From a virus, in the IMG/VR virus record IMGVR_UViG_3300035696_000041: 64,000 nt of DNA. One strand, given 5' to 3'. Numbering within the stretch: the first letter of the stretch is position 1; each line of letters opens with the position of its first letter. The notes under the pieces are model-generated. The model had not been told where the DNA came from. It made no database searches and saw only the letters and a program-made list of their open reading frames with translations. This document shows, piece after piece, positions 1-57,621 of this stretch. The position numbers and the translations under genes are program-made.

Positions 1-87
1 ACACTCCGTCTCGTGCGAAGCACTTGATGGACAAGCCATCGTCAACAGGCTAAATGTCGGACCTAAACTCTGGCAAACCCATCTCCT

Positions 88-348
88 TTAGGGGATGGGT
101 AGTTGATACAAACACTCTTCCATGTTTCCCATGTTGCATTCCACGGCAGCGAGAGCCTTCTGAAAACCTCGGTAGTAGCCGAAGGTTCGGGTCTTTCTGT
201 CCGTCTTGATTTCTCCCGTGACTGGGTGGGTGGCAATCACCTTTGCCCAAATCGAAGTCAGAAACCAAATCTGCGTCGGGTCGTTTTTTCGCATTACCAT
301 ATCAATATCCTCGGTCTTCTCTCGAACCTTCTCGTTCGAAAATGGCAA
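88..348 (-). CDS. hypothetical protein
   Basis: 86-aa ORF with protein-like composition on the dominant coding strand. No recognisable motif. Confidence 0.3.
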   Translation of the reverse strand: MPFSNEKVREKTEDIDMVMRKNDPTQIWFLTSIWAKVIATHPVTGEIKTDRKTRTFGYYRGFQKALAAVECNMGNMEECLYQLPIP

Positions 349-2370: not shown

Positions 2371-2514
2371 CTATTCCATCTGGTCAATGACTTTCTTGAA
2401 GATGGAATGGTCGTACCCACCGTTGCACGCCTCGAATAGGATAATAAGAAGAGGAATCACTGTGATGCAACAGAACAGTAAGAGCATCCCGATTATTACG
2501 TTTTTGCTTTTCAT
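2371..2514 (-). CDS. small membrane protein (47 aa, one TM helix)
   Basis: ATG overlaps the TGA of the upstream nadE fragment (ATGA). Hydrophobic core IIGMLLLFCCITVIPLLIILF. Below the ORF-track size cutoff. Confidence 0.3.
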   Translation of the reverse strand: MKSKNVIIGMLLLFCCITVIPLLIILFEACNGGYDHSIFKKVIDQME

Positions 2515-2944
2515 ACTTTTAACGCCTGTAGTTCAGCCAACTCTTCCTCATAGCCGCCCGTGAGGATAGGAGTGCGGCACCACGTCCTCGGGTCGAGGTT
2601 GTGGTCGTCCATATGGAACGAGAGAGCATACCGCTCACGCTTCCACTGATTGCGGCTGAATAAGCGGAAGAACTTCGTGATGCTATCAATGAGCTTATTG
2701 CGGTCGTAGTCCACTTCTCGGCTGATGGCATTGAAGATTTCCACGGGCACATAGCGGTTCTTCACCACGTAGCTTTCAATCATGTGGAGCAGCCAATAGG
2801 GCATCAGGTCGTCCTCGTCGGTCTGCTTGCATTCGGCGGGCCTTAGCTCGGCTGTCGGCTGTTGCTCATTGACGTACTTCATGGCGGGGCAAGGGCCAAT
2901 GCCTTCTGGTCCTTCCTCTTGCACCCACTTGAGGTACTCACGGA
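2511..2944 (-). pseudogene. nadE: NAD+ synthetase (NadE) C-terminal fragment, separated from its 5' part by IS insertion
   Basis: TAELRP...KQTDEDDLMPY matches the conserved C-terminal region of NAD synthetases. The first 46 nt of ORF 2511..2990 derive from the IS right end. TGA stop. Confidence 0.6.
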
Positions 2945-4265
2945 TATGAACTACCCACCCGCTAAAGCAGGTGGGGTTCCCCCCAAGCAATAGTTATGAG
3001 TTTCTATTGGGTAGTTCCTACCCATTTTGTATTCCATCTTGGGAAATGCGAAATCTACGATATTCTTCGCAGCATTCACATCTCTATCGTGTTGTGTATT
3101 ACAAGTAGGACACTTCCATTCTCTATCATCAAGTGTTAGAGAATGATTTACATATCCACAATGGGAACACATTTTACTGGATGGGTCAAATCTTCCAATC
3201 TTACGGAAGTTTTTACCATACCAATCACTTTTGTATTGGAGCATATTTACAAACTTATTCCAAGCATAATCAGCGATGCGATTATTGGTTGGTGAATAGT
3301 TTATGGTTTGTATGCCCTTCACAGACAAATCCTCAATACAAATAGTATTCACTTGGTTTTCGTGAGTGAGTTTGTATGAGAGTTTATCCAAGAAATCTTT
3401 TCGTTGTCTTGCTATTTTGGAATGGAGTTTGGTAATCTGCTCTTGCTTGGAGATATAAGCAGTAGAACCTTTAGTGAGTTGCTCCAAGTCCTGTTGGTGT
3501 TTGGTGAGTTTGTCTTGCGACTTTTTCAACACCTTTGGGTTCTCAATCTTGGTTCCATCGTTTAGAGTAATGAATGTCTTTACTCCAAAGTCCATTCCTA
3601 TTGCTTTGTTCCTCTTTGGTTCGGGTTTGGCTGGGAAATCCTTATTCACTTCCACAAGGATAGAGACATAATACTTTCCATCTCTGTCTTGGGATACGAT
3701 TGCTTGCTTCAATGTTCCTTCTGCTGGTCTATCAAAGATACACTTTATTCCTTCACGGAACTTTGGTATGACTAATCGTTTCGTCTCATAGTTCAGTTTG
3801 ATATTACTATTGGTGATGGGAACTATGAAGGATTTACGGGCATCCTTCCTTGACTTGAACTTGGGAAATCCTGCTCCACTACGAAAGAATGCGGTGTATG
3901 CTCGGTCAAGGTTTAGGATGGACTGCTGTAATGATTGAGAACCTATCTCACTCAACCATTCGTATTCGTCCTTGAGAGTGGGGAGTTGAGTTGCTAAATC
4001 CTGCCAAGTGATAGTTTTCTTGGTGGATTTGTAATGGTCTATTTTGACTTGGAGGAAGTGGTTATAGACGAAACGACAATGACCAAAATGCTTGGACAAA
4101 AGAACTTGTTGTTCCTTGTTCGGCATCAAGCGATATTTGTATGCTCTGTTATACATCCTACTAATACATATAGTTGAGTTTGAGAAAACATCAAAGTATT
4201 TTCAATGGGTCGCATTCATCCCATCCGCTAAAGCAGATGGGTTTTCTGCTTCCACCAAAGATAAA
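2945..4265 (-). mobile_element. IS200/IS605-family TnpB-only insertion element, copy 1 (1321 bp)
   Basis: Ends defined by alignment with copy 2. Subterminal hairpins cccacccgctaaagcaggtggg (RE) and cccatccgctaaagcagatggg (LE). No tnpA. Lies inside nadE. Confidence 0.75.
2951..4156 (-). CDS. tnpB: TnpB RNA-guided endonuclease (OrfB, IS605/IS1341 type)
   Basis: 401 aa. RuvC-I IGMDFGVKTF, RuvC-II CIEDL, zinc finger CSHCGY...CPTCNTQHDRDVNAAKNI. About 78 percent identical to copy 2. Confidence 0.85.
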   Translation of the reverse strand: MYNRAYKYRLMPNKEQQVLLSKHFGHCRFVYNHFLQVKIDHYKSTKKTITWQDLATQLPTLKDEYEWLSEIGSQSLQQSILNLDRAYTAFFRSGAGFPKFKSRKDARKSFIVPITNSNIKLNYETKRLVIPKFREGIKCIFDRPAEGTLKQAIVSQDRDGKYYVSILVEVNKDFPAKPEPKRNKAIGMDFGVKTFITLNDGTKIENPKVLKKSQDKLTKHQQDLEQLTKGSTAYISKQEQITKLHSKIARQRKDFLDKLSYKLTHENQVNTICIEDLSVKGIQTINYSPTNNRIADYAWNKFVNMLQYKSDWYGKNFRKIGRFDPSSKMCSHCGYVNHSLTLDDREWKCPTCNTQHDRDVNAAKNIVDFAFPKMEYKMGRNYPIETHNYCLGGTPPALAGG

Positions 4266-5624
4266 CTTACCAATCTTGAGGTATTCCTTGAACACGGGGT
4301 CAACGTCAAGGACCAAGAAGGGCACCCCGAGGGCCGCAGAGACTTGATTGGCCGATTCCCGAGTCACCTTGCCACTGTTCTCTGTCGGCTGATAGGCAGT
4401 AGTGATGAGTATCCTCGTAAGAATACGAATCTGTTCCTCTTGGTCGTAACGGTCAAAGTCACTGCAACGAGCAGCACTCGCACAGTGCGGAGCGTACTTG
4501 GCGAGGAAAGGAACTGCCCCAAGTTCTCGTACTCCCAACTCGATGCCCTTGGCACACGCATAAGTCACCATTGACGAGTCGGCACCGCCAGATAGAGAGA
4601 TTACAAAGCCCTTGGTGTGGGACTTCCGCATGTAATCCATGAGAGCAAGGCCGAGGGCACGGGTGCATTCCTCATGTTTAATGTTAATGCCGCTTTCCCA
4701 CGGCTCTTCGAGAGTATTCATATTCTTCTCGGCCACACTCGGGAAAAGGAAGTCTCCCTTGACGCATCCTTCATTATATCCTTCAAGGTTCGGTTGAAAG
4801 GATGCCGTTCTGGCAACACTCGTTTTGGTCGTATGCACGTCCACGATGGCAGAAGTAATGAGAGAATCACGATAGGTAAACCGTTTGCCTTCTGCACAGA
4901 GAGACCCACCCGAGGCAATCAAAGCACCGCCATCATAGATGGCACGTCCAGATTCGTTGCCTACGAGATTTGCATACACATAGGTTGCACCGAAGGCTCG
5001 GGAGCCATCCACGACGAAGTTCCTTCGGGTCACTATCTTGCGGAAAGCGAAGTGAGAAGCTGAGGGATTGAGATAAATATCCACTCCCTTACCCGCCAGC
5101 TTGGTGCCAGGGCGTGCCGCAACCCATGCATCCTCACAGATTTCATATCCAATCTTCACCCCATCGAAAAGGAAATGAGTATCACCAATAGGATAGTCAG
5201 TTCCATTGATGGTAATGTGCTTGACTATACCCGAGGGCCACGGCTTGAAGTGGCGAGGCTCATAGTGGATGCCATCCCCCGCCAAGTGTTGCTTGCACGT
5301 AAAGCCCCACACTTGCTTGTTGGCAACAGTAGCCACGGCGTTATAGAGAGTGTTGTCAAACATCACGGGGAGTCCAATGCACACGATGATGTCCTTGGTG
5401 TGCTCGGCAATGGCGAAAAGCTTCTTCATCGCCCGTGCGGGAACGTCGGCACAGAACAAGTCGTCCTCAAGGCCGTAGCCCGTGATGGTCATTTCGGGAA
5501 GGCACAGCACCGATATGTTCTGATTCTTGGCTTCCCAAATGGTCTGAATGATATTCTTGTGGTTATTCTTCCAGTCCCGAGGGGTCTGATTCATTACCGC
5601 AGCACCAACTTTGATTAGTTTCAT
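4266..5624 (-). pseudogene. nadE: glutamine-dependent NAD+ synthetase (nitrilase domain + PP-loop synthetase domain), 3'-truncated by IS
   Basis: N-terminal CN-hydrolase domain, then SLSGGADSS PP-loop. ORF 4191..5624 ends with 25 aa (GGSRKPICFSGWDECDPLKIL) encoded by the IS left end. Confidence 0.75.
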
Positions 5625-19505: not shown

Positions 19506-21125
19506 TTAGACGACGTGGTAGCCAGTGACATAACCACGGATGATTTCGGCGTGTTCGGGACTGTCCGCACCTTTTTCATCGCCACTGAGCCACTTGGGAC
19601 CACGACCAGAGGCACGGTCCTTCTGACCCTCGGCAAGCCCCTCGGCGTAGCGAGTGGAGTTGCTTTGGCGGGTCTCGATGTACTTAACTATATCCAAGAC
19701 CGTCGCAGAAATCGCTTTTTCTGCGTCTTCGTCGGGAATTTCAAAGCCGAATTCCTCTTCGAGAGCCATCGCCAGTTCCACCCCGTCAAGGGAATCAATA
19801 CCGAAGAAGCCACTGTCCATCCTCTCATTGGGCTTGATGTCAGCCTCATTGAGTCCAAGCTGTTCGGCCAGAAGGGCACGGACTTTGATATACGTAGGGT
19901 TATTCTCGGCGGTGACTTCGGCGTCAATGCGGGCCTTGTCCTCGGGCGAGAGGAAGTTACTCAGCACCGCACCGACCAGTTCAGCCGTAGGAGTTCCGCC
20001 CACAGCATTGGGAATCGGCTCAGTCTCGTTACAACCGCAACCACACACGTCGGTAAGGCGAGCAGAGACGCCGGGGCTTTGCAGAGGCACCACGGGGACC
20101 GGAGCCACGGGAGCATTGGGAATCGGCTCGGCCACGGGAGGCGGGCCGTCGTGCGTACCAATCGGGGGAATCTCGTCCTTGGGAGTGCATCCGCAATAGT
20201 CGAGTTTTTCACCGCAAACGTCGCAAGTGCAAGTGCAATCCTCGGAAGGTTCACCGCACTTGTCGCAGACTTCGGTATCACAATCACACTCCCCATCGGG
20301 AGCACCGCATTGATGGCAGATACCCTCGTCGTCGGGTTCGTAGTCGGTGCAGAGAGTGTCGGGCAGCGGGCCATTGTACTCGCCGATGACAGTGTACTTG
20401 CAGCAACGAAGCTTCTGACAATTGCAATCATCGGGCACGCTCACCACGTCGGCGGGGTCAATTTCGACGATGACCACACGCCTGCCCCAACCTTTTGCAT
20501 ACGCAAGGGAGCCAGCGTGCAAGCCGAAGGAGCAGCCATTGTGATAGTTATCGTCCACCGAGGAACGCTCGACTTCAATCGTGGACCCGACTTCGTTAAG
20601 CAAACGCCCGCTTTCGTCAACACGCCCTTGGAGAACGACGGTTTCCTTGTTGCCGTTGATGGACCAGAAGTCCAACGTGACTCCCTTGTAGGCGAGGAAG
20701 GTGCCACGGACAGTGAGCGGCATCCCCCGATGCTCAAGAAAGTTATACATTTCGGCGATAGCACGGGCCGAAGGATTCTTCATCTTCCGCTCGATGTAGT
20801 TGGCAATGGGCTTGTAACTCAGCCCGTCCTTCATGAACGCCAGCACCCGCTCGGCGTCAATGGTGTGAATGGGTCGGCCAGCGTAGGTCACGCCCGAGGG
20901 GCAGACGGAGAGACGGCCAACGGTGTAGGTCTCCACGGCGGTCTTCAAATCCATGAGGGCGAGTAATTCGTCGGTAGGTCCAGTAAAGGTGCTGCCCTCG
21001 TAGCCGATGCGGTTGAACACCTTGTTGATGTCTTCCCATTTCGGATGGTCGGCTCGGGCAGTCTTAAGGCCAGTATCGTCAACCACCAGGATGGTGTCTT
21101 GCGTTCGAGATATGGTTTTTATCAT
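19506..21125 (-). CDS. rIIB: rIIB-like protein fused to a C-terminal acyl carrier protein (ACP) domain via a Cys-rich linker
   Basis: [35 protein letters not shown]...CKYTVIGEY parallels T4 rIIB (CSRGLHVCS...VHPRDVVSIP...CQYEVVEDV). C-terminal [42 protein letters not shown] is a canonical ACP with DSL phosphopantetheine site. Confidence 0.7.
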
Positions 21126-21163: not shown

Positions 21164-21587
21164 GGAGAGTTTCAAACAGAGGGACTTTCTGTTGAAACGG
21201 GTTATGCTCGTCCATCCAACCCCTGAACATTCTCTGCAACTGAGCCTCGGTAGTGGCGGTTTTACCGGGACGATGGACGAACCCAAAAGATGTACTTTCG
21301 ATTCTATACGGATGGTCTTGGAAGAACACTTCGTCGGCACAACCCGCAAATTGTTTGAGAGTCAAGTCAATGTAGTAGCCGTTCCAAGTGACGTAGCAAT
21401 GGCAGTCATTCATGTGGAAGACGGGTTTGAGACCCATTTCTTTCAACGCACGGAATACGAGATAGCTACATATTCCACATGCACCGCCCAACCTGTCTAT
21501 CTGAAAGGAAAGGTTGTTCTTAACAACGTGCTCCACGAATTCCTCTCGGATGGCAGTCACTACGTATTTGACTCTCTGAATGTTCAT
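21135..21587 (-). CDS. hypothetical protein
   Basis: 150-aa ORF between rIIA and rIIB. Confidence 0.4.
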   Translation of the reverse strand: MNIQRVKYVVTAIREEFVEHVVKNNLSFQIDRLGGACGICSYLVFRALKEMGLKPVFHMNDCHCYVTWNGYYIDLTLKQFAGCADEVFFQDHPYRIESTSFGFVHRPGKTATTEAQLQRMFRGWMDEHNPFQQKVPLFETLPLTKAKRVL

Positions 21588-23974
21588 GCGGCCACAGCCT
21601 CTTTCGGTTGTTCAACCTTGGTTGCCTCGACGGGGGTCGTATCCTTCGTCAGATATTCATAAACATCGAGGGCGTTGACGTATCGGGCAATTTTCGTCAT
21701 GTCATCTTCGTTGACGTTGTTGGCGTACTCCAACGTATTCCACGGCAGATAAGGATACGCTTTCTGAGCCTCTTCCTCGGCTTTCTCGAAGTTGATGGTG
21801 CCCTTGTGCTCGCCTCGGAGGCTAGTCCATTGGCCGATGCCATCGAAAGCGTCCTTGATTTTGACATACAAGTCAAAATTCTTGTCGCCCACGGTCTTGA
21901 TAAGCCGCAGCAAGGGGCTGTTCTTGTCCATGATTTTGGGCACCAGCATCTTGGCCGCTTCCTCACAGACCTTGGTGGTGTTCTCGTAATTCTCGGCATC
22001 CACCATAAAGTCCACGTTGACCGTGAGGTTCGGCATGGCCTCGTCAATGGCTTTCCATATCAGTTTCCAGTCGCCCGACTCCTTGGCCTGATTGAACCAC
22101 TTGCTCTCGTCGGTCTTGGCGTTAATGATATAGATGCGGTCGGCGTCAATGTCCAACTCTTCGCACACCGTTTGGAGAGCAACACACGTATCATCGGCAG
22201 AGAAAGAAGTCCAAAGTTCTTTGCCCCGAACGTGCGTCTCGGCAAACCCACGGCGGCGGCGGGTGCTCTCACCAGCGAGGATATAGTACCCACCGTCTTC
22301 GATTTCCCGAATGGGCACTTCACTTTCCATGACTTCGCCCGAGTCAAGGTCCATGTACCGCATAGGGCGGGCACCACCGCCACCGCCACCGTAGTTGCGG
22401 GTGACTTTGTTGGCATTATTCCAAGTCTTGGCCTCGGGCATGAGGTTCGACAGATAGAGAACGGGCACCGAGTCAAACTGGAGTTCCTTATAGAAAAGGT
22501 CTTTCAAAGATTGCTGGTCGAAGGTTAGCACATAGACCGTGCGATAGTGCTTGGCATGACCGTGAATAAGATAGCGAGCCGCCATTTGCTGCCCATGCTT
22601 GCGGCCAGTGTCATTGATGACGACCACGGTATGCGTGGAAGCCATTATAGGCTCGCACTTGTCGGCAGTGCAACGATTGGACTTCACACGGCTCTTCTTC
22701 TTGCGGTACGTCACCAGCACGGGGGCTTGAGGCTCATGCCCCGTATCGCATACGTCGGTCGGGCATACATTGTCGAACCGATTGATGTCGAACCAACCAG
22801 AGCCATCGAGGGTAATGCCGTTCCACGAGAAGGCACCCTTGAAAGTATTCTCAAGTGCCATCAGATTTCCATCCAGAATCTTGATACGGGTCGTGACATC
22901 ATTCAGTTCGTCTTCGCCCTTCTCCACTTCAATCAGCCCCGTGCCGAAGATGGAGTTATACATGATTTTGGCATCCCACAGATTGGCGAGGCCCACGAAT
23001 TTCTCTTGGATGGAGTCTTTGATTTTCGCAAAGATTTCCTTCACCCGATTGACCAGGGCATTGATGGTCTTGTCCGTGTACTCAAGATGCTCCCGAGAGT
23101 CAACGAAGTTGATGTCGCCCATGCCGAAGTAAAGGATAACATCGTTGGCACGAAGCAACTCGAACAGAGCACGGGTCTTGCTGTCGAGGGTCATTTTGTG
23201 ATACAAAACGTTCCAATCAATCTGATACGGAACCCAACCCATGTAGGCCACAGCCGAGGCATTCCCGTCAATCTTGGGACGCACTTCCCAACCTTCACCC
23301 TTGAGGGTCGGAGGGGTGTTACGCCATTTGGTTAGAGACCCACGGTCATCATCCGAGAGGTTCTTGATGGTGGGCATGGTGGGCCAGTTGCGGTAGAAGG
23401 CCACGGCTTCACGATGGAAGGTGTACCACGCATTCTGCTTGACGGGCACCGTAATTTCAATGCCAGCGGGTTCATCGCTCGGGCAACGGTCAACCATGAT
23501 GATGTCGGGCAGCTTGGTGGAATCACCCTTGATGCACTGATAAATAGTCTTTTCTCCGTTAATCCAAGAGGACACCGTGAAGGTATCGGCATGGGCGAAG
23601 CCAGCTTTGCAGCCATACCCGAGGACACCATTCAGCCGATTGTCGCTCCGCTTGCGAGACTCACCAAGGACGGCATAAACATCCTTAATCTCGGTCTCGG
23701 TCAAGCCAGAGCCGAAGTCACGAATTCGAAAGTTAAGGTCTTCCATCGTCGGGAGGGAGACCACAACTTGGTCAATGGGTTTGTCGGCAATGACGTGAGC
23801 ATCGGCGGCATTGGTGCTGTATTCACGCACCACCGCCAATTCTTTGCGGGTGTACATTCTGTCCGAGAGAGTCACCAAGATTCGGGCTTGGGTGTTCTCG
23901 GTCAGTCGGAAATTGGCAACGGGAGTGGTTTGCCCAATCGTATCGAGGGTCTGTAGCGTTTCGTTCGGTATCAT
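21584..23974 (-). CDS. rIIA: rIIA-like protein with N-terminal GHKL (HATPase_c) ATPase fold
   Basis: RELAVVREYSTNAADA (N-box) and IRDFGSGLT (G1 box) of the Bergerat fold. 796 aa, located upstream of rIIB as in T4. Confidence 0.7.
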   Translation of the reverse strand: MIPNETLQTLDTIGQTTPVANFRLTENTQARILVTLSDRMYTRKELAVVREYSTNAADAHVIADKPIDQVVVSLPTMEDLNFRIRDFGSGLTETEIKDVYAVLGESRKRSDNRLNGVLGYGCKAGFAHADTFTVSSWINGEKTIYQCIKGDSTKLPDIIMVDRCPSDEPAGIEITVPVKQNAWYTFHREAVAFYRNWPTMPTIKNLSDDDRGSLTKWRNTPPTLKGEGWEVRPKIDGNASAVAYMGWVPYQIDWNVLYHKMTLDSKTRALFELLRANDVILYFGMGDINFVDSREHLEYTDKTINALVNRVKEIFAKIKDSIQEKFVGLANLWDAKIMYNSIFGTGLIEVEKGEDELNDVTTRIKILDGNLMALENTFKGAFSWNGITLDGSGWFDINRFDNVCPTDVCDTGHEPQAPVLVTYRKKKSRVKSNRCTADKCEPIMASTHTVVVINDTGRKHGQQMAARYLIHGHAKHYRTVYVLTFDQQSLKDLFYKELQFDSVPVLYLSNLMPEAKTWNNANKVTRNYGGGGGGARPMRYMDLDSGEVMESEVPIREIEDGGYYILAGESTRRRRGFAETHVRGKELWTSFSADDTCVALQTVCEELDIDADRIYIINAKTDESKWFNQAKESGDWKLIWKAIDEAMPNLTVNVDFMVDAENYENTTKVCEEAAKMLVPKIMDKNSPLLRLIKTVGDKNFDLYVKIKDAFDGIGQWTSLRGEHKGTINFEKAEEEAQKAYPYLPWNTLEYANNVNEDDMTKIARYVNALDVYEYLTKDTTPVEATKVEQPKEAVAA

Positions 23975-54107: not shown

Positions 54108-54278
54108 ACACTAAAGGTTTCAGCCATAACTATTTAGATATTCGACTATCGTTTGAACGTGACAGCGGTGCGTCTTACACTTCGGGTTATCGCAAGCTGG
54201 TAGGCACCGACACCAGCACCCGAGTCTCTTACCTTTTAACGCTAGTACTCTAGCATGAAAATCGGGGTCTTGCAACTT

Positions 54279-55598
54279 TTTATCTCTGTGGGAGCAGAAA
54301 ACCCACGCACCTTTAGGTCGTGGGATGAATGCGACCCATTGAAAATAGTTAATCGTTTTCTCAAAGTGAATGATATGTATCTTGTAGAATGTATAACGTT
54401 GCTTACAAATACAGAATATATCCGACCAAGGAACAAGAAGTCCTTTTGTCTAAACATTTCGGACATTGCCGATGGATATACAATCATTTTCTTGAAGTAA
54501 AGATTAAGCATTACAAAGAAACCAAGAAAACATTGAACTGGCAGGATATGGCAACTGAACTACCAAAATTGAAAGAAGAATATGAATGGTTGAGTGAGAT
54601 TGGAAGTCAATCTCTCCAACAATCTATTCTCAACTTGGATAGAGCATACACTTCCTTTTTCCGTTCCAATGCTGGATTTCCCAAATTTAAGTCAAAGAAG
54701 TATGCTCGTAAGTCGTTCATTGTTCCAATGACAAATAACAACATTAAACTGAACTATGAGACAAAACGATTAGTCATACCGAAGTTTCGTAAAGGAATAA
54801 AGTGTGTATTTGACCGACCGGCAGATGGAATCTTGAAGCAAGCAATTGTATCACAAGATAGAGACGGAAGATATTATGCTTCCGTTCTCGTAGAAGTTGA
54901 AAAAGAACTTCCAAAGAAACCAAACCCAAAGAAAGATAAAGCAATCGGCATAGATTTTGGAGTTAAGACATTTTTGACATTGAATGATGGAACAAAGATA
55001 AAAAGTCCTAAATACCTTAAACAATCTGAACAGAAACTTACCAAACACCAACAGGATTTAGAAACTCTCACCAAAGGTTCCACTGCTCATATCTCCAAAC
55101 AAGAACAGATTACCAAACTTCATAGTAAAATAGCAAGACAACGAAAAGATTTCTTGGATAAACTCTCATACAGATTAACGAACGATAACCAAGTTCAATC
55201 CATCTGTATTGAGGATTTAACCATTCGGGGAATGCAGAAAGACAACTATTCACCAACTAATAAACTCATAGGAGATTATGCTTGGGGGAAGTTTGTAAAT
55301 ATGCTCCAATATAAAAGCGACTGGTATGGTAAAAACTTCCTAAAAATAGGTAGGTTTGAACCATCCAGTAAGACGTGTTCTCATTGTGGATATGTAAATC
55401 ATTCTCTCACATTAAATGATAGAGAATGGACTTGTCCAGATTGTAATGAAAAACACGATAGAGATGTGAATGCTGCCAAGAATATCTTGGATTTCTCATT
55501 TCCAAAGACAACGTTTAATACGGGTAGGAACTACCCGATAGAAACTCATAACTATTGCGGTGGAAACCCACCTGCTTTAGCGGGTGGGTAGTTCATAG
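54279..55598 (+). mobile_element. IS200/IS605-family TnpB-only insertion element, copy 2 (1320 bp)
   Basis: Left end tttatctctgtgggagcagaaaaccca and right end cccacctgctttagcgggtgggtagttcata both align with copy 1. Opposite orientation. Confidence 0.75.
54389..55591 (+). CDS. tnpB: TnpB RNA-guided endonuclease (OrfB)
   Basis: 400 aa, full RuvC-I/II/III and zinc finger (CSHCGY...CPDCNEKHDRDVNAAKNI). Collinear with copy 1. Confidence 0.85.
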   Translation: MYNVAYKYRIYPTKEQEVLLSKHFGHCRWIYNHFLEVKIKHYKETKKTLNWQDMATELPKLKEEYEWLSEIGSQSLQQSILNLDRAYTSFFRSNAGFPKFKSKKYARKSFIVPMTNNNIKLNYETKRLVIPKFRKGIKCVFDRPADGILKQAIVSQDRDGRYYASVLVEVEKELPKKPNPKKDKAIGIDFGVKTFLTLNDGTKIKSPKYLKQSEQKLTKHQQDLETLTKGSTAHISKQEQITKLHSKIARQRKDFLDKLSYRLTNDNQVQSICIEDLTIRGMQKDNYSPTNKLIGDYAWGKFVNMLQYKSDWYGKNFLKIGRFEPSSKTCSHCGYVNHSLTLNDREWTCPDCNEKHDRDVNAAKNILDFSFPKTTFNTGRNYPIETHNYCGGNPPALAGG

Positions 55599-55744
55599 AA
55601 GTAGGGCTTGAATCTTTCGCAAGCCTCATCCCGAGTGATGCCGAGGCGATTGTGGTCGAAGGGGTTTCCGAAAATAGAAGAACGGTCACAGACAACATCG
55701 GGCTTGTGGCACCGCATGTTGACTATGACCGTTTGCGATTCCAC
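55577..55744 (-). pseudogene. DUF4326-like protein, 3'-truncated by the IS right end
   Basis: IVNMRCHKPDVVCDRSSIFGNPF...ACERFKPYF matches the DUF4326 core (dvyIgR...GNPF). The last six codons (YELPTR-stop) are IS-derived. Start position uncertain. Confidence 0.3.
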
Positions 55745-56085: not shown

Positions 56086-57621
56086 TTAGACCTGAACACG
56101 CTCATAGCGAGGCGTGTTAACCGTCTCATACACGATGCTGAGAGGGTCGAAGGTGATTGCGGACATCAAGGACTTCAAGATGCTAGGAGAGCATCCCGAG
56201 ACCATGCACGTTCCCGTGTCGTCGGAACGAATCGGGAAGTTTTCGTTACGGGCCGCAACGTTCCACCAAACCACACGAGGCAGTTGGTAGCCAGCGGCTT
56301 CGTACTTGTCCTTCATGACTTGGAAGTTCGTCTTGTCGTTGCGGTACGACGCTGAGTCGAACTCCATGTCCGAGATTACATACAGAACTTGCGGCATGTC
56401 GCTCTGAGCGACCTTGTTCTGGCGAGCCGTGTTCAGAATCATGTCGAACGCACTCTGGAGGTTGGTGGTGCCACCCCAGTTGTTCTTGTCCATGTTCTGG
56501 TACTTCTCGTACAGGTTCTGGCCCTTCAAACGCTGGAACGTTGGGGACTCGGAGAAGTTCATCCACAAGTCCTTGAAAGGGCCGACGTTACGCTCTGCGA
56601 AGTAAATCGCAAGCGACACGGCGACAAAGATGTTCGGAACACCCGAGAACATTGAGCCAGAGCAGTCAGCGATGACGATACCCTTGTGCTCGTTCTTGCC
56701 CATCCAGTTAGGCATGGACTTCCACTGCAAGTCGGCTTGCAGAATTTCTTGCGGCGAAGGGGTTGCCCCACCGTACGGAGTCTTCACGAGTGAACGGAAG
56801 ATTTCGTATGGATATACCACCGTGGCGTTCATCTTGGCTTCGCCCTTCTTGACAGACTCCAGGTAAGCCGCATAGCGGGTTTGGTCGTGCTTGCCGAACG
56901 CCTTGCGGTAGTTCAGCGATGCCTTGGAAGGCACACGCTCAAAGTCAATGTGCGACCAGTCGCCCGAGCACATCTTGACTTCAAGCACATCAATGTGCTT
57001 ACGCAGTGCGGACAGAATCTTGCGGTAACGCTTTGGCGTCAATTCCAGAGCCTCACGAGTCTTGCGAGCAAGACGCACGGACTCCTTGGACGAAGTGTTC
57101 TCGGACTTGAGCCACTTGGCCAAGAGCGAGACGGACTCACCCGCCTTCATGTTCTTGATGTCGGCCTTCAACTGCTTGGCGAAGAGGGCGAACACTTCGG
57201 CCTCAAGTGGGGTTCCCACGAGGGCGTACAGGTCGTCCCAACGGCCATAGAAGGCTACGTTTTCGAGGTTCTTGCGGGCAACATCTGTGTAGTGCTGGCC
57301 GAGCCAGTTGAAAATGTTGCGGAAAGTCTGACGCTCTCCCTGACCTTCACGCACGTCACGGAAGTAGAAGAGAATCTTGGTTGCCAACAGACGGTCCTCG
57401 GCAAAGGCACGAGAGAACAGGTTGACAGTATCTTGCGGAGCACGCTGACGGAGGGCACCGCCCTGGCCGAACCAGTCGAGGACTGAGGACAGGGTGCTCT
57501 TGTTGGTGATTGCCCCCTTCTCGGTGTACGCAACGTTGGACACGTTGGTCATGGCCGTAACGAAAGCGTTAGGCTGAGGGACAAACTGGGTACGGTTGGT
57601 CTTGCGAGTCACGTTCTTCAT
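56086..57621 (-). CDS. vWA-domain protein, Ro60/TROVE-like (DUF2828-like)
   Basis: 511 aa. C-terminal IVIADCSGSM MIDAS motif. N-terminal helical region of Ro60-like length and architecture. Confidence 0.45.
   Translation of the reverse strand: MKNVTRKTNRTQFVPQPNAFVTAMTNVSNVAYTEKGAITNKSTLSSVLDWFGQGGALRQRAPQDTVNLFSRAFAEDRLLATKILFYFRDVREGQGERQTFRNIFNWLGQHYTDVARKNLENVAFYGRWDDLYALVGTPLEAEVFALFAKQLKADIKNMKAGESVSLLAKWLKSENTSSKESVRLARKTREALELTPKRYRKILSALRKHIDVLEVKMCSGDWSHIDFERVPSKASLNYRKAFGKHDQTRYAAYLESVKKGEAKMNATVVYPYEIFRSLVKTPYGGATPSPQEILQADLQWKSMPNWMGKNEHKGIVIADCSGSMFSGVPNIFVAVSLAIYFAERNVGPFKDLWMNFSESPTFQRLKGQNLYEKYQNMDKNNWGGTTNLQSAFDMILNTARQNKVAQSDMPQVLYVISDMEFDSASYRNDKTNFQVMKDKYEAAGYQLPRVVWWNVAARNENFPIRSDDTGTCMVSGCSPSILKSLMSAITFDPLSIVYETVNTPRYERVQV

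What the first reader, a model, noticed from the sequence alone, without database searches (positions are those of the whole stretch)
54279..55744. Second, divergent TnpB element of identical length truncates a DUF4326-like gene; two potentially active RNA-guided nucleases in one phage
Copy 2 (54279..55598, plus orientation) and copy 1 (2945..4265, minus orientation) are each about 1320 bp. They share LE and RE hairpins. Their tnpB genes are about 78 percent identical, with all RuvC and zinc-finger residues intact.

Copy 2 replaces the 3' end of a DUF4326-like ORF: ...GNPFDHNRLGITRDEACERFKPYF followed by 6 IS-derived codons.

Neither element carries tnpA, so mobilisation in trans or TnpB-assisted homing is implied. 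The right-flank sequences that would form the omegaRNA guides differ: tccgtgagtacctcaa for copy 1 and gaagtagggcttgaat for copy 2.

TnpB-family elements in virulent-phage accessory regions are of interest as miniature programmable nucleases and as markers of phage-phage competition.
Basis: partly seen in the sequence, partly recalled or inferred. Interest (0 to 1): 0.65.

Follow-up and report, generated by a model that had tools for sequence, protein, structure and literature searches.

The report
Two TnpB-only insertion sequences in phage
A T4-like phage genome carries two separately acquired, transposase-less IS200/IS605 insertion sequences, each encoding an intact TnpB RNA-guided nuclease and each knocking out a phage accessory gene; this is a well-documented example of a known kind of element, not a new system.

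Summary
The window contains two IS200/IS605-type elements that carry tnpB but no tnpA. Copy 2 is 54284..55596 (+). Copy 1 is 2946..4260 (-). They are 78% identical in DNA and 81% in protein. Both keep the RuvC Asp-Glu-Asp triad, the zinc finger, hairpins at both ends and a conserved structured 3' end of the omegaRNA type.

Seventeen or more independent insertions in related contigs fix the boundaries. The element always follows 5'-TTTAT, the inferred TAM, and ends in ...GGGTAGTTCAT.

Copy 2 does not replace the 3' end of the DUF4326 gene. It is a clean insertion, antisense to the gene, that splits it. A related phage has the intact gene with TTTAT at the same position.

Copy 1 also disrupts a gene, a glutamine-dependent NAD synthetase, and 214 bp of that gene are missing. 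Intact relatives read TTTAT followed by 15 of the 16 bases of copy 1's guide.

Each copy is closer (about 94% protein identity) to elements in other phage contigs than to its partner. dN/dS is about 0.1. No tnpA occurs in the window or in about 70 phage-like loci.

TnpB homologues occur in 426 catalogued phage genomes. I rate this a new member of a known kind, of modest interest.

The parts
54279..54283 (+). TTTAT target motif (inferred TAM) immediately 5' of the left end of copy 2. It belongs to the DUF4326 gene, not to the element.
   Evidence: TTTAT precedes the left end in at least 17 independent insertions. The intact homologue in L021 reads GCAACTTTTTAT|AAAAAT at the same position.
54284..55596 (+). 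Copy 2: a non-autonomous IS200/IS605 element (tnpB only), 1313 bp, 37% G+C against 50% for the window.
   Evidence: Alignment of the two copies; ends defined by relatives; base composition.
54302..54324 (+). Copy 2 left-end subterminal hairpin, CCCACGCACC-TTTA-GGTCGTGGG.
   Evidence: DNA fold z = -3.5. There are compensatory differences from copy 1 and from relatives.
54389..55591 (+). Copy 2 tnpB, 400 aa, intact.
   Evidence: Pfam domains. Match to ISDra2 TnpB structure 8BF8 with E = 3.7e-67 over residues 3-367, with Asp188/Glu274/Asp357 aligned to the catalytic triad. dN/dS about 0.1.
55521..55596 (+). Copy 2 conserved 3' RNA/DNA structure. It comprises a stem-loop GGGTAGG-AAC-CTACCC (55521..55537), a linker, and the terminal right-end hairpin CCCACCTGC-TTTA-GCGGGTGGG (55567..55588) closed by GAA..TTC. 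It ends in TAGTTCAT. This is the likely 3' part of the omegaRNA scaffold; the 5' limit of the scaffold was not determined.
   Evidence: The 240-nt 3' region has an RNA fold z = -6.6. Compensatory changes occur in both stems across 16-20 relatives.
55597..55612 (+). Right flank of copy 2, AGAAGTAGGGCTTGAA, the predicted omegaRNA guide and target sequence.
   Evidence: This is the first base after the conserved ...TTCAT end. In the window the only match to TTTAT plus this guide is this occupied site, which reads TTCAT.
55597..55717 (-). DUF4326 gene, N-terminal part (MRCHKPDV...ERFKPYF plus the first base of the Tyr codon).
   Evidence: Pfam DUF4326 profile positions 4-46. 77% identity to the intact homologue in L021, which begins at the same Met.
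54120..54283 (-). DUF4326 gene, C-terminal part ((Y)KKLQDPDF...LNSYG plus the stop codon).
   Evidence: Pfam DUF4326 profile positions 50-82. Rejoining the halves across the element gives ...KPYFYKKLQDPDF..., which aligns without a gap to ...EEYFYKKLRDVEF... of L021.
4261..4265 (-). TTTAT target motif (inferred TAM) 5' of the left end of copy 1.
   Evidence: Same evidence as for copy 2. Intact nadE relatives carry ...AAAGTTTAT|ATCCGTGAG.
2946..4260 (-). Copy 1: a non-autonomous IS200/IS605 element, 1315 bp, 40% G+C. Left-end hairpin 4220..4241; stem-loop about 3008..3024; right-end hairpin 2954..2975.
2951..4156 (-). Copy 1 tnpB, 401 aa, intact.
   Evidence: Its closest relative is P0024 at 94%.
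2930..2945 (-). Right flank of copy 1, ATCCGTGAGTACCTCA, the predicted guide.
   Evidence: Intact nadE genes in L077 and L078 read TTTAT + ATCCGTGAGTATCTCA, a 15 of 16 match.
4261..5624 (-). nadE (glutamine-dependent NAD synthetase) N-terminal part, corresponding to residues 1-456 of the intact homologues.
   Evidence: Pfam CN_hydrolase and NAD_synthase. 70% identity to L008 residues 1-456.
2511..2945 (-). nadE C-terminal part, corresponding to residues 524-669 of the intact homologues. The 214 bp between the two parts are absent from the window.
   Evidence: 80% identity to L008 residues 524-669. No match to residues 457-523 anywhere in the window. The size of the gap was measured against L077 and L078.

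Best explanation
The feature is two independently acquired, non-autonomous insertion sequences of the IS200/IS605 family. They are of the tnpB-only type, called the IS1341 group in ISfinder. They belong to a lineage that circulates mainly in phage genomes.

Shown here:
- Each element inserted immediately 3' of a TTTAT motif without duplicating the target.
- Copy 2 is a clean insertion, antisense, inside a DUF4326 gene.
- Copy 1 sits in sense orientation at the conserved TTTAT|ATCCGTGAG site of nadE. In addition, 214 bp of nadE just upstream of that TTTAT are missing, with AAG microhomology at the junction. nadE would therefore stay dead even if the element excised precisely.

Inferred from characterised relatives (ISDra2; ISGst2, whose TnpB2 also uses a TTTAT TAM):
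- Each tnpB transcript is processed into an omegaRNA. Its scaffold overlaps the 3' end of tnpB and the right end of the element, and its roughly 16-nt guide is the adjacent phage sequence.
- TnpB loaded with this RNA cuts any DNA reading TTTAT followed by the guide, that is, the same locus without the element.
- The occupied locus is spared because the right end reads TTCAT instead of TTTAT.
- Cutting an empty allele, followed by recombinational repair from an occupied copy, restores or spreads the element. The empty allele could arise by excision or belong to a co-infecting related phage.
- Jumps to new sites need a Y1 (HUH) TnpA supplied in trans. The most likely source is an autonomous element in the host cell. 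The left-end hairpin, which TnpB does not need, is conserved and covaries across the lineage.
For: Identity and integrity: (ISDra2 TnpB 8BF8, E = 3.7e-67, catalytic triad aligned). dN/dS is 0.06-0.12 in seven pairwise comparisons.

Ends and target: TTTAT precedes the left end in at least 17 distinct insertions, and a ...TA[GA]TTCA[TC] end is conserved.

Empty sites: L021 has an intact DUF4326 gene with TTTAT at the junction and no duplication. L008-L015, L077 and L078 have intact nadE genes with TTTAT|ATCCGTGA.

Deletion.

Structured 3' end: z = -6.6 for both copies. There are compensatory changes in both 3' stems. For the terminal hairpin, 86.5% of cells are paired against 78% in shuffles, with 0 of 500 shuffles reaching the observed value and lower values for all slid controls.

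Independent acquisition: each copy is about 94% identical to elements elsewhere and 81% to its partner. dS between the two copies is 1.23. The nearest relatives sit in other gene contexts. Element G+C is 37-40% against 50% for the window.

No tnpA: tblastn with the Y1 TnpA of L023 hits all 6 bacterial or archaeal loci, but neither the window nor about 70 viral or metagenomic loci. The neighbourhoods of relatives are phage-like.

Self-sparing: the only in-window matches to TAM plus guide are the occupied sites, which read TTCAT. TnpB2 cleavage is reported as highly sensitive to TAM mutations.
Against: There is no expression or cleavage data. omegaRNA processing, guide length and TAM use are inferred from relatives that are only 40-45% identical.

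No Rfam family matches. Only the two 3'-most hairpins are supported by covariation. The terminal hairpin is also what a TnpA would recognise, so it does not by itself prove an RNA role.

No TnpA source has been identified, and the host is unknown.

No perfect empty target for either guide was found in IMG/VR. The best for copy 1 is 15 of 16. The one known relative of the copy 2 site is poorly matched.

The window is probably a metagenomic assembly. Collapse of two tandem copies could in principle mimic the nadE deletion, although that would require an unsupported TTTAT at the upstream site.
Confidence: 0.82

Rival explanations
1. The elements act as phage-borne RNA-guided homing endonucleases. 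The lineage persists and spreads among phages mainly without TnpA. During co-infection, TnpB-omegaRNA cuts the element-free allele of a related phage. Recombinational repair then copies the element across, or the cut simply disables the competitor. This would be analogous to the Seg and Mob free-standing endonucleases of T4, and corresponds to the 'transposon non-restorative homing' proposed in a 2026 review.
For: Related phages carry TTTAT plus 15 of the 16 bases of copy 1's guide in an intact nadE. Relatives above 60% identity were seen only in phage-like contexts, and never with tnpA. In the species-representative genome collection the best match was 46% identical. tnpB is under purifying selection. 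One sublineage (L040-L049) has lost the left-end hairpin but keeps an intact tnpB and 3' structure, with the identical protein in 27 contigs. The host phage has T4-like genes (rIIA, rIIB), and T4-type phages recombine heavily (general knowledge). The concept is stated in PMC13565253.
Against: The closest relatives of both copies lie at different, unrelated sites. At least 17 distinct TTTAT sites are used, which requires transposition, not homing. The left-end hairpin is conserved with covariation in most members. Miniature derivatives made of left end plus right end exist (L065, L066, L073), and both features point to TnpA-dependent mobility. No case of the same insertion shared by divergent phage backgrounds was demonstrated. 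The genome scan used exact peptide words, so it could miss bacterial relatives.
Confidence: 0.3
2. The elements are inert passengers. They were acquired by chance from host DNA, are no longer expressed or active, and merely mark two inactivated accessory genes.
For: Both insertions destroy genes. nadE has lost 214 bp in addition. No sigma-70-like promoter was found in the left end of copy 2. There are no expression data.
Against: Both ORFs are full length, with all catalytic and zinc-binding residues. dN/dS is about 0.1 even between copies with saturated synonymous divergence. Both ends and the 3' structure are intact. The promoter scan covers only one promoter type, and phage promoters may differ.
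Confidence: 0.1
3. The elements are intron-like (IStron-type) and are spliced out of the host transcripts, so that nadE and the DUF4326 gene remain functional.
For: Copy 1 lies in the same sense as nadE. IStrons that combine a group I intron with an IS200/IS605 element are known (general knowledge, and mentioned).
Against: No group I intron or any other Rfam family was found at the gathering threshold or at relaxed thresholds. The left end is only about 105 nt long. Copy 2 is antisense to its host gene. nadE lacks 214 bp (3n+1), including the SE..GY.T.DGD motif region, so no splice could restore it.
Confidence: 0.02

Closest known systems
ISDra2 TnpB / omegaRNA (Deinococcus radiodurans; PDB 8BF8, 8EXA, 8H1J)
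   Same: The proteins align end to end (residues 3-367 against 4-369, E = 3.7e-67), with the same domain order and the RuvC Asp-Glu-Asp triad in place. Both elements insert 3' of a 5-nt motif and have subterminal hairpins at both ends.
   Different: ISDra2 carries its own tnpA and targets TTGAT (general knowledge). The window elements have no tnpA and target TTTAT. Here the tnpB reading frame runs through the right-end hairpin, with its stop codon lying five bases before the last base of the element. The omegaRNA of the window elements is inferred, not observed.
ISGst2 TnpB2 of Geobacillus stearothermophilus (Meers et al. 2023, preprint 10.1101/2023.03.14.532601)
   Same: Same family and the same 5'-TTTAT-3' motif. 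[quoted passage not shown]
   Different: ISGst2 is a bacterial chromosomal element in a genome that also encodes TnpA. Sequence identity to the window proteins was not measured here. Geobacillus virus E3, a phage carrying a homologue, is 39.6% identical.
tnpB-only IS200/IS605 elements (IS1341 group) already annotated in phage genomes, for example Microcystis phage Mic1, Clostridium phage c-st, Streptococcus thermophilus phages and cyanophage A-1(L)
   Same: These are TnpB genes without tnpA inside phage genomes. 426 INPHARED records have a homologue, and 384 of them cover at least 80% of the protein. The tnpB of A-1(L) is discussed.
   Different: All catalogued phage homologues are at most 41% identical. 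The close relatives (60-94%) are known only from metagenomic contigs. The A-1(L) copy is identical to copies in its host, whereas no bacterial copy of this lineage was found.
Free-standing homing endonucleases of T4-like phages (Seg, Mob)
   Same: This is a functional analogy only. They are selfish nuclease genes in accessory regions of recombination-proficient virulent phages, and they could cut the element-free allele of a co-infecting relative.
   Different: They are unrelated proteins that recognise DNA through the protein, not through a guide RNA. Homing has not been demonstrated for the window elements.

Membership tests
IS200/IS605 family insertion sequence | Subterminal imperfect-palindrome hairpins at both the left and right ends, and no terminal inverted repeats. 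| tested here: met
   The left-end and right-end hairpins, with a shared CTTTAG loop, fold with z = -2.8 to -4.0 as DNA. They are conserved with compensatory changes in relatives.
IS200/IS605 family insertion sequence | Insertion 3' of a fixed 4-5-nt target, without target-site duplication. | tested here: met
   TTTAT precedes the left end in at least 17 insertions. The empty site in L021 shows that nothing was duplicated or lost at copy 2.
IS200/IS605 family insertion sequence | A Y1 (HUH) transposase TnpA encoded in the element. This is required for an autonomous member but not for the tnpB-only IS1341 group. | tested here: not met
   There is no TnpA-like ORF in either element or anywhere in the 64-kb window. 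The elements are therefore filed as non-autonomous members of the IS1341 group.
TnpB RNA-guided nuclease (OMEGA system) | TnpB domain architecture with an intact RuvC Asp-Glu-Asp triad and a zinc-ribbon. | tested here: met
TnpB RNA-guided nuclease (OMEGA system) | A structured non-coding RNA scaffold that overlaps the 3' end of tnpB and the right end of the element. | tested here: inconclusive
   There is a strong predicted structure (z = -6.6) and covariation in the two 3'-most stems. However, no curated model matches, the upstream part of the scaffold is unresolved, and the RNA itself has not been observed.
TnpB RNA-guided nuclease (OMEGA system) | The guide equals the right flank, and the empty site reads TAM plus guide. 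| tested here: met
   Removing each element in silico gives TTTAT+flank. Intact nadE relatives read TTTAT + 15/16 of the copy 1 flank. L021 has TTTAT at the copy 2 position.
TnpB RNA-guided nuclease (OMEGA system) | RNA-guided, TAM-dependent DNA cleavage. | not testable with these tools
   This needs interference or in vitro cleavage assays.
IStron (group I intron fused to an IS200/IS605 element) | A group I intron ribozyme at the 5' end, and sense orientation in the host gene. | tested here: not met
   There is no Rfam hit. The left end is about 105 nt. Copy 2 is antisense to its host gene.
TldR (nuclease-dead, domesticated TnpB-like repressors) | Loss of the RuvC catalytic residues and loss of the transposon ends. 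| tested here: not met
   The catalytic triad is intact and both ends are intact.

The most novel reading that the evidence does not exclude
This TnpB-only lineage may be phage-resident. In that reading it is maintained chiefly by RNA-guided homing between co-infecting phages, acting as an RNA-programmed counterpart of the T4 Seg/Mob endonucleases, with TnpA-dependent transposition only occasional. The nadE junction, with its TAM retained and a microhomology deletion just upstream, would then be the scar of imprecise repair after such a homing event into a diverged recipient.
Probability: 0.25. Interest if true: 0.65.

Novelty: new member of a known kind. Interest (0 to 1): 0.35.

Why it matters
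The pair gives a cleanly documented natural example of TnpB elements in a virulent-type phage. The ends, the target motif (TTTAT), both empty sites and both predicted guides are all defined from sequence alone. That makes the two nucleases directly testable as compact programmable enzymes.

The survey also shows a sizeable family (60-94% identical) seen here only in phage-like contigs and never next to a transposase. This is the natural setting in which the recently proposed 'non-restorative homing' of TnpB elements between co-infecting genomes could be tested.

For annotating this phage, the result means that nadE and the DUF4326 gene are pseudogenes created by insertion sequences, not short or novel genes.

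Tried and rejected
- **Finding the source phage.** Megablast of both loci against INPHARED found nothing. The left edge of the window is not in IMG/VR.
- **Rfam.** The whole window at gathering thresholds and the copy 2 3' end at E <= 10 gave no relevant family. There are no tRNAs.
- **First boundary model.** Ends at TTTATCT|...TTCATA| restored nadE in frame. I dropped this model once relatives showed that the element ends at ...TTCAT and that nadE carries a 214-bp deletion. With the correct ends only the DUF4326 gene is restored in frame.
- **KEYLKI / REYLKW as a target duplication.** Rejected. These are two different parts of nadE, 71 codons apart in intact homologues.
- **A native TTTAT at the upstream nadE site** (two insertions plus recombination, or assembly collapse). 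Judged unlikely. All ten relatives read K-[QEVI]-[IMV]-K there, with no TTTAT. It cannot be excluded.
- **Exact TAM+guide searches in IMG/VR.** Both gave zero hits.
- **GTDB species-representative genomes.** The best hit was 46% identical, so no host was identified.
- **Relatives of the ORF cut by the hairpin at window 64..108.** None were found.
- **Whole 3' alignment (A2).** MAFFT misaligned the terminal hairpin, because the close relatives carry a 24-nt insertion. I re-did the terminal 35 nt separately.
- **Inversion between the two copies** was considered but not tested.
Full report
**What is in the sequence.** The window holds two full-length tnpB ORFs: 54389..55591 on the + strand (400 aa) and 2951..4156 on the - strand (401 aa). 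The surrounding DNA aligns over about 1320 nt at 78.1% identity, and the proteins are 81% identical. Both proteins carry the Pfam domains HTH_OrfB_IS605, OrfB_IS605 and Cas12f1-like_TNB. They align end to end with the solved ISDra2 TnpB structure (8BF8, E = 3.7e-67). Asp188, Glu274 and Asp357 fall on the catalytic Asp191, Glu278 and Asp361, and the CxxC...CxxC zinc-binding motif is present. The elements have 37-40% G+C in a window of 50%.

**Exact ends and target motif.** Close relatives (60-94% protein identity) came from IMG/VR, from the large protein collection and from a DNA-pattern scan. In every complete copy the conserved sequence begins directly after 5'-TTTAT and ends at ...GGGTA[G/A]TTCA[T/C]. 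TTTAT precedes the left end in at least 17 different flanking contexts, and the base before it is not conserved. Copy 2 is therefore 54284..55596, with TTTAT at 54279..54283. Copy 1 is 2946..4260, with TTTAT at 4261..4265 on the - strand. The right flanks, which in this family give the omegaRNA guide, are AGAAGTAGGGCTTGAA (copy 2) and ATCCGTGAGTACCTCA (copy 1). TTTAT is the experimentally established TAM of a characterised family member, ISGst2 TnpB2.

**Copy 2 splits the DUF4326 gene and does not truncate it.** The - strand ORF ending ...ERFKPYF matches DUF4326 profile positions 4-46. A second - strand ORF on the other side of the element (54120..54275) matches positions 50-82. Removing 54284..55596 joins them in frame as ...KPYF-Y-KKLQDPDF.... 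A related phage contig (L021) has an uninterrupted homologue. It is 77% identical over 93 residues, lies next to the same neighbouring 511-aa gene, and reads ...EEYFYKKLRDVEF... with no gap. On the element's strand its DNA reads GCAACTTTTTAT|AAAAAT. This is a simple insertion with no duplication and no loss, antisense to the gene.

**Copy 1 disrupts nadE, and 214 bp of nadE are missing.** The 477-aa ORF at 4191..5624 (-) is the N-terminal part of a glutamine-dependent NAD synthetase (CN_hydrolase plus the start of NAD_synthase). The ORF at 2511..2990 (-) contains its C-terminus. Ten intact homologues from phage-like contigs (59-77% identical, 669-686 aa) contain about 67-71 further residues between the two parts. 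That stretch includes the conserved SE..GY.T.DGD region. Nothing resembling it occurs elsewhere in the window. In seven of these homologues the codons Lys-[Ile/Val]-Tyr|Ile-Arg-Glu are spelled ...TTTAT|AT[CT]CG.... The two syntenic metagenome contigs read CCGAAAGTTTAT|ATCCGTGAGTATCTCA, which is TTTAT followed by 15 of the 16 bases of copy 1's right flank.

The simplest history is an insertion at that TTTAT, plus loss of the 214 bp (3n+1) between ATTGGTAAR and the TTTAT, with AAG present at both edges. Alternatives exist: two insertions followed by recombination, assembly collapse of two copies, or a native TTTAT at the upstream site. All need a Lys-Phe-Ile spelling at the upstream site that none of the relatives has. 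Either way nadE is a pseudogene.

**Ends, hairpins and the 3' structure.** The left ends carry a hairpin (copy 2: CCCACGCACC-TTTA-GGTCGTGGG; copy 1: CCCATCTGC-TTTA-GCGGATGGG). The right ends carry CCCACCTGC-TTTA-GCGGGTGGG followed by TAGTTCAT. These fold as DNA with z = -2.8 to -4.0. As RNA, the last 240 nt of each copy plus its flank fold with z = -6.6, and none of 200 shuffles is as stable. Across 16-20 distinct relatives, two 3' elements keep their shape while changing sequence:
- The first is a stem-loop GGGYAGG-AAY-YNRYCCC, in which two pairs each show five sequences changed on both sides.
- The second is the terminal hairpin, closed by GAA..TTC, with at least seven different stem sequences.
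- On a separate alignment of the terminal 35 nt, 86.5% of cells pair against 78% in shuffles. None of 500 shuffles reaches the observed pairing or covariation score, and all slid controls are lower.

No Rfam family matches. I read this as the 3' part of an omegaRNA scaffold. There are two caveats. The terminal hairpin is also the expected TnpA binding site, and the upstream part of the scaffold could not be resolved because it lies in coding sequence.

**Origin and mobility.** Copy 1's best relative is 94% identical (P0024) and copy 2's is 93.5% (P0001), against 81% between the two copies. Synonymous divergence between the copies is saturated (dS = 1.23), while dN/dS is 0.06-0.12 in every comparison. 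The nearest relatives lie in unrelated gene contexts. The two copies were therefore acquired separately, from a pool of elements whose protein is under purifying selection.

All neighbourhoods inspected for relatives look phage-like. They include DNA polymerase B, clamp loader, Thy1, GP88 and long runs of small ORFs. Another contig, of 303 kb, also carries two members. A Y1 transposase taken from a 46%-identical bacterial relative finds a counterpart next to all six bacterial or archaeal loci. It finds none in the window or in about 70 viral and metagenomic loci. The best hit in the species-representative genome collection is only 46% identical, though that scan depends on exact peptide words.

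Most members keep the left-end hairpin, and miniature left-end-plus-right-end derivatives exist (L065, L066, L073). Together with the many distinct target sites, this implies transposition by a TnpA supplied in trans.

**Mechanism, shown and inferred.** Shown here are the anatomy, the target motif, the empty sites, the independent origin, the purifying selection and the absence of tnpA. The following steps are inferred from ISDra2 and ISGst2:
- The tnpB transcript yields an omegaRNA whose guide is the right flank.
- TnpB with this RNA cuts TTTAT+guide, which is the same locus lacking the element.
- Recombinational repair from an occupied copy restores the element.

In the window, the only matches to TAM+guide are the occupied sites themselves, where the right end supplies TTCAT instead of TTTAT. 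Given the reported TAM sensitivity, that single base would plausibly protect the phage's own genome.

The same chemistry could also cut the nadE of related co-infecting phages (15 of 16 guide match). This is the 'non-restorative homing' idea already stated in a 2026 review. I could not demonstrate it, and the diversity of insertion sites argues that it is not the only mode of spread.

**Comparison with what is known, and verdict.** TnpB-only IS200/IS605 elements in phage genomes are common. In INPHARED, 426 records have a homologue, though none above 41% identity, and a cyanophage example has been studied experimentally. The elements here meet every sequence-level criterion for the family except carrying tnpA, which places them in the non-autonomous group. 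They fail the tests for IStrons and for nuclease-dead TldR-like derivatives.

The finding is a new member of a known kind. Its value lies in two ready-to-test compact nucleases with a defined TAM and defined guides, a corrected annotation of two phage pseudogenes, and a pointer to a possibly phage-resident TnpB lineage. I score interest at 0.35.

Noticed in passing
window 64..108 (+): There is a third hairpin of the element type, AAACCCATCTCC-TTTA-GGGGATGGG followed by TAGTTGAT. It is 85% identical to the right end of copy 2, and its stem is identical to the left-end hairpin of L001 and L050. It cuts off the C-terminus of the - strand ORF 88..348 (...EECLY|QLPIP*), much as copy 2 cuts the DUF4326 gene. 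The 60 nt to its left do not resemble the elements, and the window starts there. It could be a solitary remnant or the right end of a different element lying upstream of the window.
   Followed up: partly
L065 (-) around 4900..5170; L066 1..130; L073 (-) around 3030..3215: These loci contain miniature derivatives of the family. They consist of TTTAT, the left-end hairpin and the last 60-150 nt with the right end, with tnpB deleted (MITE- or PATE-like). L065 is the second family member on the 303-kb contig IMGVR_UViG_3300037042_006844, which also holds a full copy (L003/L056).
   Followed up: partly
L040-L049 (gene at 3001..4200 in L040); also L002/L067: In one sublineage the identical 399-aa TnpB occurs in 27 contigs from different samples. 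It has lost the whole left-end hairpin but keeps an intact ORF and the 3' structure. About 120 nt upstream of tnpB, the left flank contains ATGTGGTTATTTCATAATGC, which resembles the right flank TATGTGGTTGTTTTTTGATGC. In L002 the left-end hairpin is also missing, and the junction is again at TTTTTTAT|.
   Followed up: no
L034, L036, L038 (left flanks): The same element with the same right flank has three different sequences to the left of TTTAT in contigs from one sample series. This could reflect upstream deletions like the one at nadE, recombination between insertions, or chimeric assembly across a repeat.
   Followed up: no
L031, L032 (1307 bp); L053 (1326 bp): Whole metagenomic contigs consist of nothing but one element. 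Assemblers produce this when a sequence is repeated in several contexts in the sample.
   Followed up: no
L010 5600..5645 (contig end): In this nadE homologue the codons Trp-Val-Val-Asp are spelled TGGGTAGTTGAT. This equals the tail of the hairpin at window 75..105. The contig ends 35 nt later. It may be coincidence.
   Followed up: no
window 19506..21125 (-): The rIIB-like ORF (539 aa) also matches an acyl-carrier-protein family over residues 401-485 (PHROG 5934, E = 3e-15), which suggests a fusion or a missed gene boundary. rIIA lies next to it at 21584..23974 (-).
   Followed up: no
window 56086..57621 (-): A 511-aa gene lies next to the DUF4326 gene. It is conserved at 71-75% in two other viral contigs (L021, L022) and was used here only as a synteny anchor. 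Its function was not examined.
   Followed up: no
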